From an uncultured Defluviitaleaceae bacterium (GTDB lineage: Bacteria > Bacillota > Clostridia > Lachnospirales > WRBF01), in contig CAZBLK010000009.1 in the NCBI GenBank assembly GCA_964492715.1, forward strand, positions 27,653-91,652: a stretch of 64,000 bases of DNA. Reading direction: 5' to 3'. This document shows, piece after piece, positions 36,001 to 39,000 of the stretch. A program made the position numbers. Positions within the stretch are counted from its first letter, which is position 1; each line of letters starts with the position of its first letter.

Positions 36001-39000
36001 TTGAATTTGCAAAAGAACGCAGCATAGTAATTATGACAACTAGTTTACCTATGTTCAGTGCGTGCGGACAGCTTTATGCGAAAGGACTTGGTAATTGTGG
36101 TGATGATGAATGAAATTTAGCTATGATGTGCTAGACGGCGACTTTTTAAGCGCAGGCGAAGCTTCAAGCGCATTTAAAAAAGTTTTGAAACAGCTTGGAA
36201 TACCTGCCGACATTATAAGAAAAATTGCAATTGCTATGTATGAAGCAGAGATTAACATGGTTATACACGCAAATGGTGGCGTAATTGATGCAGAGGTTTT
36301 GCCAGAAAAAATTGTTATTTCACTGAAAGATGTAGGCCCTGGCATTCCAGACATTGACAAAGCTATGCAGGAAGGTTTTTCCACAGCTTCTGACGAAGCA
36401 AGAAACCTTGGCTTTGGTGCTGGTATGGGGCTTCCGAACATGAAAAAAAATTCCGACTTCTTGAACGTAACAACAGAAGTTGGCGTTGGAACAACTATAG
36501 AAATTACGGTTAATTTGTAGTATGTTAAGGGAGTTTATTTGCAAGGTTTTAGGGGCGGTGCCCCAAAGTTTTATTTTATTAATGTTTTAGTCGAACTTCC
36601 ATAAGCAAACCTTTTCCTTTGCAAAGGGGTGAAAAGATGAACGACCATCAACATTCTGTAGCTTTAGTTTCTGATAAATGTATCGGCTGCACAGACTGTA
36701 TAAAACGTTGCCCAACACAAGCTATTCGTGTAAGAGACGGCAAAGCTGTAATAAACGGCACAAAGTGCATAGACTGCGGTTTATGTATTAAGGTTTGTTC
36801 GCACCACGCAAAAAAGGCAACGACAAGCAGTATGGATATAATAAGAGACGTTAAGTACAAGGTGGCAATTCCTGCACCTACAATTTACAGCCAGTTTAAA
36901 AAAATAACTGACGTAAACATTGTTTTGACAGCAATAAAACAACTTGGCTTTGACGAGGTTTTCGAGGTGTCAAAGGCGGCTGAAATGGTTACAAACAAAA
37001 CTAGGCAGCTTGTAAAAGAGGGGAACTTGAAAAAACCAATTATTTCTTCGGCGTGCCCTGCAATAATTAGGCTAATTTGCATGAGGTACCCTTCGCTTAT
37101 TGAAAATATTCTTCATGTAATTTCACCGGCAGAAGTTGCAGCAAAAATGGCGAAAGATTATTTGGAGAATAAAGGAATTAGGCGTGAAGACATAGGCGTT
37201 TTTTTTATTAGCCCATGCGCCGCAAAAAATACATACGTTATCCACCCATTGGGCATCGAAAAGTCCGAAATTGACGGTGTAATTTCTATGCAGGACATTT
37301 ATATGGAGCTTAGAAACAAAATTAGCCGTTTAAAAGACGTGGAGGTATTAGCAACTTCTGGCATGGAGGGCATAGACTGGGCTGTTTCTGGCGGCGAAAG
37401 CAAAGGCGTTTACACAGACAACGCAATTGCAGTTGACGGCGTAGAAAACGTGGAACAAGTTCTCGAAGAAATTGAAAACGGACAGTTATCTGACGTTGAT
37501 TTTGTTGAGGGGCTTGCTTGCATAGGCGGCTGTATTGGTGGGCCTTTAACGGTTGTAAACGGTTTTGTAGCAAAAAACAGGTTTTTGAAAGTTGCAACCG
37601 AAATGTCAAAAATGTCCGAGGAAAGAAAACGCAAAATACATTTCGATGACAGTAAAATTAACTATATGTTTACAAAAAAGCTTGAAAAAATTCAAGGCTC
37701 AAAGCTTGATGAAGACATCTCTGTGGCACTTAAAAAGATGGAACAAATGGATAAGCTTTACACAGTTCTTCCGCATATAAACTGCGGTTCTTGTGGCTCG
37801 CCGACGTGCCGCACACTTGCCGAAGACATTGTGCGAAACGAAGCTAACATTGAGGACTGTGTTTTTATGCTTCGTAAAAAGGTTAAGGAACTTGCCGAGG
37901 CAATGTATGACCTTTCGTCAAAAATGCCTCAAACTTCTAACAGTTTTACAGAAAAGTGAGGGGGCTATTTTATGACGGTTGCTGAATTTGCAGAAAAGTT
38001 TGGGTTTAAGCTTGTTGCGGGTGCAGGCGGTGCTGACAGCGAGGTAAAAGGTGTTTACATAGGCGACTTGTTAAGTTGGGTTATGGGAAAAGCCGAGGAA
38101 GGAAACGCTTGGCTTACAATTCAAGGGCATGTGAACGTAATTGCCGTTGCGCTTCTTACATGTGTAAGCTGTATAATTGTATGCGAAGGCGCAGAAGTTT
38201 CGGACGACTCCAAGGTAAAAGCCGACAAAGAGGACATTCCGCTTTTAACAACAGAGCTAAGCACGTATGAAACGGCAAAGCTTTTTATGGAGCATTTTTA
38301 AATGAAGCTTTATTATGATTTTCACATTCACACAGCCCTTTCGCCGTGCGGTGACACAGAAATGACACCAAACAACATTGTAAACATGGCGCAAATTTGC
38401 GAGCTAAACGCAATTGCAATAACCGACCACAACATAGCCGGGAACGTTGCCGCTACTATGAAAGCGGCAGAGGGTACGGGGCTTTTAGTTGTGCCTGGAA
38501 TGGAAGTTGAAACGTCTGAGGAAGCTCATGTTGTGTGTCTTTTTCCAAGTTTGGAAAACTTGCTTTGCTTTGAGCAAGTTATTAGAGAAAGATTACCCAA
38601 TTTAAAAAACAAGCCAGAAATTTTTGGCACGCAGCTTTTTTACAACAAAAACGACGAGGTAGTGGGCGAGCATGACGGCATGTTAGTTGTTGCAACTTCT
38701 ATCGACCTTTATAGTTTGTCAAATTTGGTAAAAGAGCATAGTGGTGTTTTTATTCCAGCGCACGTTGACAGACCGTCCTACAGCATAATTTCAAACCTTG
38801 GGTTTATTCCACTGGATTTACCTATGGGCGTTGTAGAAATTTCAAAGCACGTTGACCCAGTAGAGTATATGCACAACAATAAAAAGCTTTTTGGGCGAAA
38901 GTTTAAGTTTGTCCAGTCGTCTGATGCACATTATTTGGAGAACATTGGGGAAGCTGGGAATTTTTTAGAAGTTGAGAATGAGCCTACTGTTCAAGGGATT

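What the first reader, a model, noticed from the sequence alone, without database searches (positions are those of the whole stretch)
36637..37959. Hydrogenase-like protein keeps all H-cluster Cys ligands but replaces the proton-relay Cys (TSCCP reads SSACP) and adds a Cx2Cx4Cx16C tail
- Read directly: two ferredoxin motifs, CIGCTDCIKRCP and CIDCGLCIKVCS.
- H-domain motifs are ISSACPA (aa 136-142; Ala139 is encoded at nt 37051-37053), ISPCAAK (Cys194) and EGLACIGGCIGGP (Cys295, Cys299).
- The C-terminus is C383-GS-C386-GSPT-C391-(16 aa)-C408.
- Loss of the first Cys of TSCCP removes the canonical proton-transfer residue.
- An extra C-terminal four-Cys cluster site of exactly this spacing is what I recall for the putative sensory (HydS-type, group C/D) [FeFe] hydrogenases.
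- Unlike the PAS-containing HydS of Thermotoga or Ruminococcus, there is no PAS domain here.
Basis: partly seen in the sequence, partly recalled or inferred. Interest (0 to 1): 0.6.

Follow-up and report, generated by a model that had tools for sequence, protein, structure and literature searches.

The report
Group D putative hydrogen-sensing [FeFe] hydrogenase
This gene encodes an ordinary member of a known, widespread family of slow, probably hydrogen-sensing iron hydrogenases, and it sits in that family's usual small operon with a kinase-like ATPase, a phosphoesterase and two small DRTGG proteins.

Summary

- It is 55% identical over its full length to TamHydS, the characterised group D enzyme, and 50% identical to C. 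bescii Athe_1292, which is published as "D M2e". It is only about 25% identical to group A HydA.
- It has every published group D signature. These are Ala for the proton-relay Cys (SSACP), Ser for Met353, Leu for Met497, the alternative proton path S251/E254/D267/E291, a C-terminal Cx2Cx4Cx16C (PF04060), and no PAS domain.
- These features define the family: SSACP occurs in 216 of 237 relatives and the Cys spacing in 236 of 237.

The gene is the third of a five-gene unit, DRTGG - SpoIIAB-like ATPase - HydS - DRTGG - PHP phosphoesterase. This unit is collinear in about 80 other genomes, including Thermoanaerobacter and Caldicellulosiruptor.

In about two thirds of relatives a bifurcating HydABC operon lies next to the unit. 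Here there is no other hydrogenase in the 64 kb window.

Verdict: a new member of a known kind. Interest is low to moderate, because the sensing mechanism of the family remains unproven.

The parts
35614..35634 (+). Intrinsic terminator-like hairpin after the upstream glycyl-tRNA synthetase gene. It marks the 5' boundary of the cassette's transcription unit.
   Evidence: 8-bp stem with 6 GC pairs followed by TTTTTTGT. An extended -10-like TGTTATAAT and a GGGGGGA ribosome-binding site lie before the ATG at 35754 (read directly).
35754..36113 (+). DRTGG1: a 119-aa single-domain DRTGG protein, first gene of the cassette.
   Evidence: Pfam DRTGG E=3.9e-5, just below the cut-off. AF2 pLDDT 89.5; best PDB fold is 2ioj (a DRTGG protein, TM 0.82), then the CBS-PPase DRTGG domain and the HPrK/P N-domain. 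Found upstream of HydS on the same strand in 70 of 80 other loci. Conserved motifs are D34-x-MSDVLAF, LLTGL, QVxRTAEMxD and FVRGK.
36110..36520 (+). A 136-aa SpoIIAB/RsbW-like GHKL ATPase (HATPase_c_2). Its start overlaps the DRTGG1 stop by 4 nt.
   Evidence: Pfam HATPase_c_2 E=2.2e-9. NCBIfam anti-sigma F factor E=4e-14, below the cut-off. The closest solved proteins are SpoIIAB 1til/1tid/1l0o, E~4e-7. The N-box (E45, N49, H53), G1 (D74xGPG) and G2 (GFGAGMGLPN) are >=90% conserved. It lies directly upstream of HydS in 77 of 80 other loci.
36637..37959 (+). HydS: group D (M2e) [FeFe] hydrogenase, 440 aa.
36679..36801 (+). N-terminal F-domain with two CxxCxxCxxxCP ferredoxin motifs (aa 15-26 and 44-55), for two [4Fe-4S] clusters.
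   Evidence: Fer4 family hits. All eight Cys are invariant in alignment A1. R31, R33, K36 and K59 correspond to TamHydS R30, R32, K35 and K58.
37042..37062 (+). L1 motif ISSACPA. Ala139 replaces the proton-relay Cys (CpI C299); Cys140 is an H-cluster ligand (CpI C300).
   Evidence: Alignment to CpI. Corresponds to TamHydS A137. SSACP occurs in 216 of 237 relatives.
37207..37227 (+). L2 motif ISPCAAK. Ser192 replaces CpI Met353; Cys194 is an H-cluster ligand.
   Evidence: alignment. Ser or Thr occupies this position in >=234 of 237 relatives. Land 2020 describes M353->Ser/Thr as an M2e trait.
37387..37509 (+). Group D alternative proton path: S251, E254, D267 and E291, equivalent to TamHydS S249, E252, D265 and E289.
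   Evidence: Pairwise alignment. E254, D267 and E291 are invariant in A1. The function of E252 and E289 was shown by mutagenesis in TamHydS (PMC10407848).
37507..37545 (+). L3 motif EGLACIGGCIGGP. Leu293 replaces CpI Met497; Cys295 and Cys299 are H-cluster ligands.
   Evidence: TamHydS has the same Leu.
37783..37860 (+). C-terminal Cx2Cx4Cx16C site (C383, C386, C391, C408; Pfam PF04060) for a third accessory [4Fe-4S] cluster.
   Evidence: PF04060 E=1.3e-13. This spacing occurs in 236 of 237 relatives. Equivalent to TamHydS C379/C382/C387/C404.
37972..38301 (+). DRTGG2: a 109-aa DRTGG protein and paralogue of DRTGG1. It starts 12 nt after the HydS stop.
   Evidence: Pfam DRTGG E=5.4e-7. hhalign against DRTGG1 gives probability 99.4%, E=2.7e-21. 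Found downstream on the same strand in 73 of 80 other loci. Conserved motif: GDLLSWVM.
38302..39027 (+). A 241-aa PHP-family metal-dependent phosphoesterase. Its start abuts the DRTGG2 stop.
   Evidence: Pfam PHP E=2.6e-8. Candidate metal-ligand residues H8, H10, D42, H43, E68, H76, H154, D208 and H210 are >=90% conserved. Found downstream on the same strand in 66 of 80 other loci.
39052..39090 (.). A 13-bp-stem hairpin between the convergent PHP gene and the 39125-39355(-) ORF. It is probably a bidirectional terminator and the 3' boundary of the cassette.
   Evidence: MFE -21.3 kcal/mol, z=-6.0, 0 of 200 shuffles fold as well. The sequence was read.

Best explanation
The ORF encodes a group D (M2e) [FeFe] hydrogenase, an orthologue-level relative of Thermoanaerobacter mathranii HydS.

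Shown by sequence:
- It keeps the four Cys that hold the H-cluster (C140, C194, C295, C299) and two N-terminal [4Fe-4S] sites.
- It has a C-terminal Cx2Cx4Cx16C [4Fe-4S] site.
- It has the group D second sphere: Ala139 for the proton-relay Cys, Ser192 for Met353 and Leu293 for Met497.
- It has the group D-specific proton path E254 -> E291 -> S251 -> D267.

Inferred from TamHydS biochemistry:
- Once matured by HydEFG it would bind a normal H-cluster.
- It would turn over H2 about a thousand-fold more slowly than group A enzymes.
- It would have high H2 affinity and a stabilised reduced state. It would therefore report H2 partial pressure rather than carry metabolic flux.

Inferred from gene order:
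- The signal most likely passes to the SpoIIAB-like GHKL ATPase encoded immediately upstream. That gene is the one near-universal neighbour.
- The two paralogous DRTGG proteins and the PHP phosphoesterase would complete a phosphorylation/dephosphorylation or partner-binding switch.
- In most relatives the switch probably controls the adjacent electron-bifurcating HydABC hydrogenase.
- In this genome the cassette is its own transcription unit between glyRS and housekeeping or glycolytic genes. Its target must lie elsewhere.
For: Family membership:
- Domain architecture Fer4x2 + Fe_hyd_lg_C + PF04060 with no PAS.
- SSACP aligns on TSCCP of CpI.
- 55% full-length identity to TamHydS. That sequence was rebuilt from the published coding sequence; all 17 published residue numbers check, and it is 99% identical to database protein P0119.
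- 50% identity to Athe_1292, listed as 'D M2e' in PMC3561251.
- Only 25% identity to a group A HydA, and below the NCBIfam cut-offs for groups A and B1.
- The signature residues are invariant or nearly so among relatives.
- AF2 model pLDDT 83.6, pTM 0.80. Foldseek top hits are all [FeFe] hydrogenases, E down to 1.6e-20.

Slow, sensor-like chemistry of the family: PMC8163306, PMC10407848 and PMC11803613.

Signalling partners:
- The order DRTGG-HATPase-HydS-DRTGG-PHP is collinear in 66-77 of 80 loci from other species. It is also found in Thermoanaerobacter and C. bescii.
- ATP-binding motifs of the ATPase and metal ligands of the PHP protein are conserved.
- The ATPase is closest to anti-sigma F factor SpoIIAB.
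- HydABC is adjacent in 50 of 82 loci, and in 30 of 47 loci with >=3 kb on both flanks.
- Here the gene starts overlap or abut, and hairpins bound the unit.
Against: - No experiment has shown that any group D enzyme acts as a sensor. TamHydS is catalytically competent, and its C-terminal cluster does not change redox state under H2 (PMC13104023).
- No DNA-binding or sigma-factor gene is in the cassette, so the output is unknown.
- The DRTGG proteins have the DRTGG / HPrK N-domain fold, not the STAS fold that SpoIIAB-type kinases normally phosphorylate. The phospho-switch is therefore a guess.
- The window holds no hydEFG maturase genes and no second hydrogenase. Neither maturation nor a target is shown for this organism.
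- Asp378 of TamHydS, conserved in 233 of 236 relatives, is Asn382 here.
- No formal phylogeny with group B, C and E-G references was run.
Confidence: 0.8

Rival explanations
1. It is a low-rate but truly metabolic hydrogenase, for example a ferredoxin-linked H2-evolving or H2-uptake enzyme with increased tolerance of CO and O2. It would not be a sensor, and the neighbouring genes would regulate or modify it rather than receive a signal from it.
For: - TamHydS catalyses H+/H2 interconversion in both directions and retains two relay clusters like M2-type enzymes (PMC8163306).
- The C-terminal cluster is not reduced by H2, which undermines one sensing model.
- The sensory label is called putative in reviews.
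- Here no hydrogenase that could be regulated lies nearby.
Against: - The H2 evolution rate is about 1000-fold lower than in group A, and catalysis needs an overpotential (PMC11803613).
- The whole group A proton path is lost.
- The gene is almost always linked to a kinase-like ATPase, and in most genomes to HydABC. That is the pattern of a regulator, not of an enzyme with its own redox partners.
Confidence: 0.13
2. It is a hydrogenase-like Fe-S protein that never receives the [2Fe] subcluster in this organism. It would sense redox state or Fe-S status through its [4Fe-4S] clusters, like eukaryotic Nar1/NARF proteins.
For: No hydE, hydF, hydG or other hydrogenase gene is in the 64 kb window. 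The cassette is unlinked from hydABC.
Against: - A 64 kb window cannot show absence from a genome.
- All four H-cluster Cys, Lys197 of PCAAK and the group D proton-path residues are retained under strong conservation.
- The 55%-identical TamHydS takes up [2Fe]adt and is active.
Confidence: 0.05
3. It is a group C (M2f, PAS-containing) sensory hydrogenase whose PAS domain was lost by truncation or a frameshift in this assembly.
For: Groups C and D share the N-terminal clusters, the loss of Cys299 and the Cx2Cx4Cx16C motif.
Against: - The length (440 aa) and the C-terminus match more than 230 full-length relatives of 389-508 aa.
- The next gene starts 12 nt after the stop and is the conserved DRTGG2.
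- Ser192 and Leu293 are the TamHydS (group D) residues, not the Gly and Ser reported for TmHydS.
- The identical protein occurs on three independent contigs.
Confidence: 0.02

Closest known systems
TamHydS, the group D (M2e) putative sensory [FeFe] hydrogenase of Thermoanaerobacter mathranii
   Same: - 55% identity over the full length, and the same length class (440 vs 435 aa).
- Same three domains.
- Identical L1 (SSACP), L2 (SPCAAK) and L3 (EGLACIGGCIGGP) motifs.
- Same proton-path residues (S/E/D/E) and the same Cx2Cx4Cx16C.
- Conserved interdomain residues R31, R33, E396 and D397.
- Same flanking genes DRTGG, HATPase_c_2, DRTGG and PHP.
   Different: - In Thermoanaerobacter the cassette is immediately followed by the hydC-HK-hydD-hydB-hydA bifurcating operon. 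Here no hydrogenase operon lies within 64 kb.
- Asn382 replaces Asp378, and Lys43 replaces Arg42.
- The host genome is AT-rich (38% GC), and the closest relatives are Defluviitaleaceae and Vallitalea MAGs.
Athe_1292 of Caldicellulosiruptor bescii and other 'D M2e' genes (Csac_1857, TTE0887, Cthe_0335, Cphy_3798, Teth39_1463)
   Same: 50% identity to Athe_1292 and the same five-gene cassette. These genes are classed as monomeric sensory hydrogenases near protein kinases and bifurcating hydrogenases (PMC3561251).
   Different: Those genes lie upstream of HydABC. This one does not.
TmHydS / RaHydS / HfsB, the group C (M2f) PAS-containing putative sensory [FeFe] hydrogenases
   Same: N-terminal 2x[4Fe-4S], loss of the proton-relay Cys, a C-terminal Cx2Cx4Cx16C cluster, low activity and a presumed regulatory role.
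   Different: - Group C carries a C-terminal PAS domain and is paired with Ser/Thr kinase and PP2C phosphatase genes.
- This protein has no PAS and is paired with a SpoIIAB-like ATPase, DRTGG proteins and a PHP phosphoesterase.
- The residues at positions M353 and M497 differ from TmHydS: Ser and Leu here, against the Gly and Ser reported for TmHydS.
[quoted passage not shown]
   Same: The H-domain fold and the four H-cluster Cys. The F-domain resembles DdH, and Foldseek gives E down to 1.6e-20 with TM about 0.6-0.68.
   Different: - About 20-25% identity.
- Cys299 becomes Ala. Read off the alignment, E279, E282, R286 and S319 of the proton path are not conserved. Met353 and Met497 are replaced.
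- There is an extra C-terminal cluster domain.
- Activity is expected to be about 1000-fold lower.
SpoIIAB/RsbW partner-switching kinases (for the adjacent ATPase)
   Same: A small single-domain GHKL ATPase of the same length as SpoIIAB, with intact N, G1 and G2 boxes.
   Different: No STAS-domain antagonist and no sigma factor are encoded nearby. The co-encoded small proteins have a DRTGG fold. The NCBIfam score is far below the SpoIIAB cut-off (53 vs 135 bits).

Membership tests
Group D (M2e) [FeFe] hydrogenase (HydS type) | H-domain with the four Cys ligands of the H-cluster (CpI C300, C355, C499, C503) | tested here: met
   C140, C194, C295 and C299. Fe_hyd_lg_C E=2.8e-38. Aligned to CpI and invariant in relatives.
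Group D (M2e) [FeFe] hydrogenase (HydS type) | [quoted passage not shown] | tested here: met
   aa 15-26 and 44-55, with Fer4 family hits.
Group D (M2e) [FeFe] hydrogenase (HydS type) | C-terminal Cx2Cx4Cx16C cluster motif | tested here: met
   C383/C386/C391/C408, PF04060 E=1.3e-13. Definition in PMC8163306.
Group D (M2e) [FeFe] hydrogenase (HydS type) | No PAS domain after the C-terminal cluster (this separates D from C) | tested here: met
   No PAS hit at E<=0.01. Only 32 residues follow C408, and the next gene is DRTGG2.
Group D (M2e) [FeFe] hydrogenase (HydS type) | The proton-relay Cys (CpI C299) is not conserved, and the group A proton path is absent | tested here: met
   Ala139, equivalent to TamHydS A137. 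Read off the alignment, the positions of E279, E282, R286 and S319 are K, Q, a gap and L.
Group D (M2e) [FeFe] hydrogenase (HydS type) | Met353 replaced by a hydroxyl residue (Ser/Thr) | tested here: met
   Ser192 in ISPCAAK. Ser or Thr in >=234 of 237 relatives.
Group D (M2e) [FeFe] hydrogenase (HydS type) | Group D-specific proton path E252, E289, S249(S/T), D265 (TamHydS numbering) | tested here: met
   E254, E291, S251 and D267. Defined in PMC10407848.
Group D (M2e) [FeFe] hydrogenase (HydS type) | Clusters with characterised or published group D sequences rather than groups A, B or C | tested here: met
   55% identity to TamHydS, 50% to Athe_1292 and 25% to group A HydA. Below the NCBIfam A and B1 cut-offs. 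This rests on pairwise identities and signatures only; no tree with B, C and E-G references was built, and HydDB was not available.
Group D (M2e) [FeFe] hydrogenase (HydS type) | Encoded next to a histidine-kinase-like ATPase | tested here: met
   HATPase_c_2 gene at 36110-36520. The same neighbour occurs in 77 of 80 other loci. Noted for TamHydS in PMC8163306.
Group D (M2e) [FeFe] hydrogenase (HydS type) | Encoded upstream of a bifurcating group A HydABC operon (frequent, not universal) | tested here: not met
   No second hydrogenase, NuoE-like or NuoF-like gene in the 64 kb window. 17 of 47 fully flanked relatives also lack it, so this is a common variant and not a disqualifier.
Group D (M2e) [FeFe] hydrogenase (HydS type) | Binds the [2Fe] subcluster; low turnover, high H2 affinity, stabilised Hred; HydEFG present in the genome | not testable with these tools
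   Needs protein chemistry and the whole genome. No hydEFG in the window.
Group C (M2f) sensory [FeFe] hydrogenase | C-terminal PAS domain | tested here: not met
   No PAS domain.
Group A prototypical/bifurcating [FeFe] hydrogenase | TSCCP motif with the proton-relay Cys, and a score above the family cut-off | tested here: not met
   SSACP. TIGR02512 scores 107 bits against a cut-off of 406; NF040763 scores 100 against 765.
SpoIIAB/RsbW anti-sigma Ser kinases (neighbouring ATPase 36110-36520) | GHKL ATP-binding boxes; a STAS-domain substrate and a cognate sigma factor | tested here: inconclusive
   The ATP-binding boxes are present and conserved, and the closest PDB relatives are SpoIIAB. However, the score is below the equivalog cut-off. 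No STAS or sigma gene is in the cassette, and the co-encoded proteins have a DRTGG fold.

The most novel reading that the evidence does not exclude
The five-gene unit may be a self-contained H2-responsive switch of a kind not yet described. It consists of DRTGG, a SpoIIAB-like ATPase, HydS, DRTGG and a PHP phosphoesterase.

In this reading, H2 binding at HydS changes the activity or partnering of the GHKL ATPase. A heterodimer of the two paralogous DRTGG proteins would take the place that STAS proteins hold in classical partner switching; the shared D-L-[ML]-S motif is a candidate phosphosite. The PHP enzyme would reset the switch.

In 'orphan' copies like this one, unlinked from hydABC, the switch would control something other than the bifurcating hydrogenase, such as fermentation or central carbon genes.

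I found no open-access paper that links DRTGG proteins with hydrogenases.
Probability: 0.2. Interest if true: 0.65.

Novelty: new member of a known kind. Interest (0 to 1): 0.28.

Why it matters
Group D [FeFe] hydrogenases are common in fermentative anaerobes. How, and whether, they sense H2 is an open question, and no group C or D structure has been solved. This copy adds nothing new about the enzyme itself.

The comparison it prompted does show two things:
- The enzyme almost never travels alone. A SpoIIAB-like ATPase is its near-universal neighbour.
- Two DRTGG paralogues and a PHP phosphoesterase accompany it in most Clostridia.

This gives concrete candidates for interaction and phosphorylation assays with and without H2.

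Orphan cassettes such as this one also show that the module can be separated from the bifurcating hydrogenase operon. That matters when predicting H2-dependent regulation of fermentation in gut and sediment Clostridia.

Tried and rejected
- **Second hydrogenase or HydABC in the window.** tblastn with the HydS protein and with Thermoanaerobacter HydA, HydB, HydC and HydD found only HydS itself.
- **hydEFG or other related genes.** A Pfam scan of about 37 further ORFs showed only housekeeping genes: the hrcA-grpE-dnaK-dnaJ operon, tRNA synthetases, EF-G/EF-Tu, RNase J, pgk-tpi-gpmI-eno and others.
- **Rex operator upstream of the cassette.** A TTGTTAAnnnnTTAACAA search with 3 mismatches gave 21 hits against 20.8 expected. 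That includes one at 35705-35722, so there is no signal.
- **HPr-like ORF 39125-39355(-) and the HisJ-type PHP gene 39642-40445 as cassette members.** Rejected, because neither is found beside HydS in any of the 80 other loci.
- **Fusion proteins as evidence of interaction.** The longer relatives P0035 (508 aa) and P0071 (462 aa) only carry low-complexity tails.
- **Structured RNA or riboswitch.** Rfam at gathering threshold found nothing in 30000-46000.
- **Horizontal transfer.** GC content across the cassette (0.39-0.43) matches its surroundings.
- **Naming the organism.** Exact-sequence look-ups returned unnamed NCBI/Logan records on a 106,653-bp contig.
- **Literature on the partner genes.** Two searches found no paper that links DRTGG with hydrogenases. 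Only general remarks on 'histidine/serine kinase' neighbours were found.
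Full report
**1. The observation**

Translating window 36637-37959 (+) gives one uninterrupted 440-codon frame ending in a stop. A script located each motif and every Cys:
- CIGCTDCIKRCP at aa 15-26 and CIDCGLCIKVCS at aa 44-55.
- ISSACPA at aa 136-142, with Ala139 encoded by GCG at 37051-37053.
- ISPCAAK at aa 191-197.
- EGLACIGGCIGGP at aa 291-303.
- Cys383, Cys386, Cys391 and Cys408, i.e. 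Cx2Cx4Cx16C.

A longer ORF begins at a TTG at 36619. The ATG at 36637 has a good ribosome-binding site and matches the N-termini of homologues, so it is the likely start.

The features are not chance. Pfam gives Fe_hyd_lg_C E=2.8e-38, PF04060 'putative Fe-S cluster' E=1.3e-13 on residues 378-410, and several 4Fe-4S ferredoxin models. No PAS hit appears. In the HMMER alignments to solved structures, SSACP lies on TSCCP of CpI and of the T. kivui HydA1. Ala139 therefore occupies the place of the proton-relay Cys299, and Cys140 that of the ligand Cys300.

**2. What the protein is**

The published description of the M2e subclass (phylogenetic group D) has these elements (Land et al. 2020, PMC8163306; Schumann et al. 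2026, PMC13104023):
- an H-domain;
- a C-terminal Cx2Cx4Cx16C motif;
- no conserved Cys299, and none of the group A proton-path residues;
- no PAS domain, which separates it from M2f/group C;
- Met353 replaced by Ser or Thr.

To compare directly I took the codon-optimised TamHydS coding sequence from the supplement of PMC13104023. I repaired its machine-reading frameshifts using tblastn segments and obtained a 435-aa protein. All 17 published residue numbers fall on the stated residues: C20, R30, R32, K35, R42, K58, S249, E252, D265, E289, D378, C379, S384, E392, D393, D403 and C404. The reconstruction is 99% identical to a 435-aa database protein, P0119. It is 96% identical to a protein that NCBI names for Thermoanaerobacter.

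The window protein is 55% identical to TamHydS over 431 aligned positions. Correspondences (window residue = TamHydS residue):
- Ala139 = A137.
- Ser251, Glu254, Asp267 and Glu291 = S249, E252, D265 and E289. These are the group D-specific proton path, tested by mutagenesis in PMC10407848.
- Arg31, Arg33, Glu396 and Asp397 = R30, R32, E392 and D393, the conserved interdomain contacts.
- Cys383, Cys386, Cys391 and Cys408 = C379, C382, C387 and C404.
- Ser192 and Leu293 take the places of CpI Met353 and Met497, exactly as in TamHydS.

Two positions differ: Asn382 for D378 and Lys43 for R42.

Other comparisons agree:
- The protein is 50% identical to the C. bescii protein P0180. By gene order in CP001393, P0180 is Athe_1292, listed as 'D M2e' by Carere et al. 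2012 (PMC3561251).
- Identity to a group A bifurcating HydA is 25%.
- NCBIfam scores are far below the cut-offs for group A (107 vs 406 bits) and B1 (160 vs 450 bits).
- An AlphaFold2 model built on 22 sequences has mean pLDDT 83.6 and pTM 0.80, with lower confidence after residue 350.
- Foldseek against the PDB returns only [FeFe] hydrogenases at about 20% identity (DdHydAB constructs, CbA5H, CpI, HydABC). No group C or D structure is present.

**3. The features are the family signature**

The database search returned 7,393 proteins at E<=1e-10 among 8,000 scored candidates. The best 120 all have the same Pfam architecture and are 389-508 aa long. Counts among the 237 relatives fetched:

| Feature | Count |
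|---|---|
| SSACP | 216 of 237 |
| Ser or Thr before the PC of L2 | at least 234 of 237 |
| Cx2Cx4Cx16C | 236 of 237 |
| Asp before the first C-terminal Cys | 233 of 236 (Asn in 3, this protein included) |

It is the defining state of a large, widespread family. NCBI labels that family only generically, as '4Fe-4S binding protein' or '[Fe-Fe] hydrogenase large subunit C-terminal domain-containing protein'.

**4. Surroundings**

HydS is the third of five co-directional genes that overlap or abut:

| Gene | Coordinates | Size |
|---|---|---|
| DRTGG protein (DRTGG1) | 35754-36113 | 119 aa |
| HATPase_c_2 protein; its start overlaps the previous stop | 36110-36520 | 136 aa |
| HydS | 36637-37959 | 440 aa |
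| Second DRTGG protein (DRTGG2); starts 12 nt later | 37972-38301 | 109 aa |
| PHP phosphoesterase; start abuts the previous stop | 38302-39027 | 241 aa |

A terminator-like hairpin follows the upstream glyRS gene at 35614-35634. A strong hairpin at 39052-39090 (-21.3 kcal/mol, z=-6.0) separates the PHP gene from a convergent ORF. The five genes therefore look like one transcription unit.

A scan of one genome per species with the HydS alignment gave 567 confirmed relatives, of which 80 loci were kept. tblastn with the four neighbours found them in the same order and on the same strand:

| Neighbour | Loci (of 80) |
|---|---|
| ATPase | 77 |
| DRTGG2 | 73 |
| DRTGG1 | 70 |
| PHP | 66 |

Several of the loci that lack a neighbour are cut by contig ends. 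The same five genes flank the TamHydS orthologue in Thermoanaerobacter and Athe_1292 in C. bescii. Three spirochaete loci and one clostridial locus keep only the ATPase-HydS pair. That pair therefore looks like the core.

What the neighbours look like:
- **ATPase.** It keeps the GHKL N, G1 and G2 boxes at >=90% conservation. Its closest solved relatives are anti-sigma F factor SpoIIAB (also NCBIfam).
- **PHP protein.** It keeps a full set of His, Asp and Glu candidate metal ligands.
- **DRTGG proteins.** They are paralogues of each other (hhalign 99.4%, E=2.7e-21) and share a D-L-[ML]-S-x-V motif.
- **DRTGG1 fold.** It models confidently (pLDDT 89.5) as a canonical DRTGG fold: 2ioj (TM 0.82), the CBS-pyrophosphatase DRTGG domain and the HPr kinase N-domain. 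It is not a STAS fold.

In 50 of 82 loci, and in 30 of 47 loci with at least 3 kb on both flanks, a hydC-HK-hydD-hydB-hydA bifurcating hydrogenase operon lies beside the cassette, usually directly after the PHP gene. In this window there is none. tblastn finds no second hydrogenase, NuoE-like or NuoF-like gene in 64 kb, and Pfam scans show only housekeeping genes and no hydEFG. The closest relative is a Defluviitaleaceae MAG at 68% identity. It shares glyRS upstream and also lacks hydABC, but has a HydD-like [2Fe-2S] ferredoxin after the PHP gene.

**5. How it most likely works**

Shown:
- The ligand set for an H-cluster and three accessory [4Fe-4S] clusters.
- The group D second sphere and proton path.
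- The conserved operon.

Inferred from TamHydS:
- After maturation the protein binds a standard H-cluster.
- It turns over H2 roughly a thousand-fold more slowly than group A enzymes and needs an overpotential.
- It has high H2 affinity, tolerates CO, and changes secondary structure on H2 exposure.

Inferred from gene order:
- The H2-dependent state of HydS is read by the SpoIIAB-like ATPase.
- The DRTGG pair and the PHP phosphoesterase form the rest of a phosphorylation or partner-binding switch.
- In most genomes the switch regulates the neighbouring bifurcating hydrogenase. Here the target is elsewhere.

Weak points:
- No group D enzyme has been shown to signal.
- The C-terminal cluster of TamHydS does not respond to H2.
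- The cassette has no DNA-binding or sigma component.
- DRTGG proteins are not known kinase substrates.

**6. Comparison, novelty and score**

The protein meets every sequence-level defining feature of group D that could be tested. It fails the defining features of group C (PAS) and group A (TSCCP, score cut-offs). The only frequent group D trait not met is adjacency to HydABC, which about a third of relatives also lack. It is therefore a new member of a known kind.

Linkage of M2e genes to 'histidine/serine kinases' and bifurcating hydrogenases has been noted since 2010-2012. I found no open-access paper naming the DRTGG and PHP partners. That is a modest by-product of this check and not a property peculiar to this window.

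Interest is low to moderate (0.28). The gene is ordinary for its family. The family's function is still open, and the conserved partner set makes it testable.

Noticed in passing
window 37780-37782 (Asn382, just before Cys383): The residue before the first C-terminal cluster Cys is Asn here, but Asp in 233 of 236 relatives. The equivalent TamHydS D378 was proposed to push the potential of the C-terminal cluster more negative (PMC13104023). The identical protein is found on three contigs, so this is unlikely to be a sequencing error.
   Followed up: partly
window 39125-39355 (-): A 76-aa ORF convergent with the cassette has a weak, sub-threshold PTS-HPr match (E=3e-4). This is curious next to proteins whose DRTGG fold resembles the HPr kinase N-domain. 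However, the ORF is not found beside HydS in any of 80 other loci.
   Followed up: yes
window 36521-36636 (hairpin at 36552-36564): The spacer between the ATPase gene and hydS is 116 nt, longer than in most of the relatives. It holds a 5-bp all-GC hairpin followed by a T-rich stretch. This could be a partial internal terminator or attenuator.
   Followed up: no
window 35754-36113 and 37972-38301: The two DRTGG proteins flanking the ATPase and hydS are paralogues (hhalign 99.4%). They share a conserved D-L-[ML]-S-x-V motif (DRTGG1 Ser37, DRTGG2 Ser35). JGI labels members of this family 'predicted transcriptional regulator'.
   Followed up: partly
L056, L070, L071 (Spirochaetes) and L030: These loci keep only the SpoIIAB-like ATPase and HydS, without DRTGG or PHP genes. 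L056 has a divergent DeoR regulator upstream, and L030 has a CheW gene upstream.
   Followed up: partly
L025, L037, L068: hydC lies upstream of the sensor cassette, and in L025 and L037 the rest of the bifurcating hydrogenase operon lies downstream. The cassette there sits inside the hyd operon.
   Followed up: no
L082 11019-11564, and the equivalent gene in most hydABC-linked loci: A second, different HATPase_c / HATPase_c_3 protein of about 180 aa is encoded between hydC and hydD of the bifurcating operon in 48 loci. Many genomes therefore carry two distinct GHKL ATPases around these hydrogenases.
   Followed up: no
window 42480-43688 (pgk product): In the protein collection, the window's phosphoglycerate kinase sits in a 90%-identity cluster whose representative is a 44-aa E. 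coli 'phage tail protein' fragment. This is a clustering artefact of the database, not biology.
   Followed up: no
window 21533-22959 and 60542-61003: A PadR-DUF4180 regulator gene is followed by a DUF2975 membrane protein gene, and a second DUF2975 gene lies near the far end of the window. These are unrelated to the finding.
   Followed up: no
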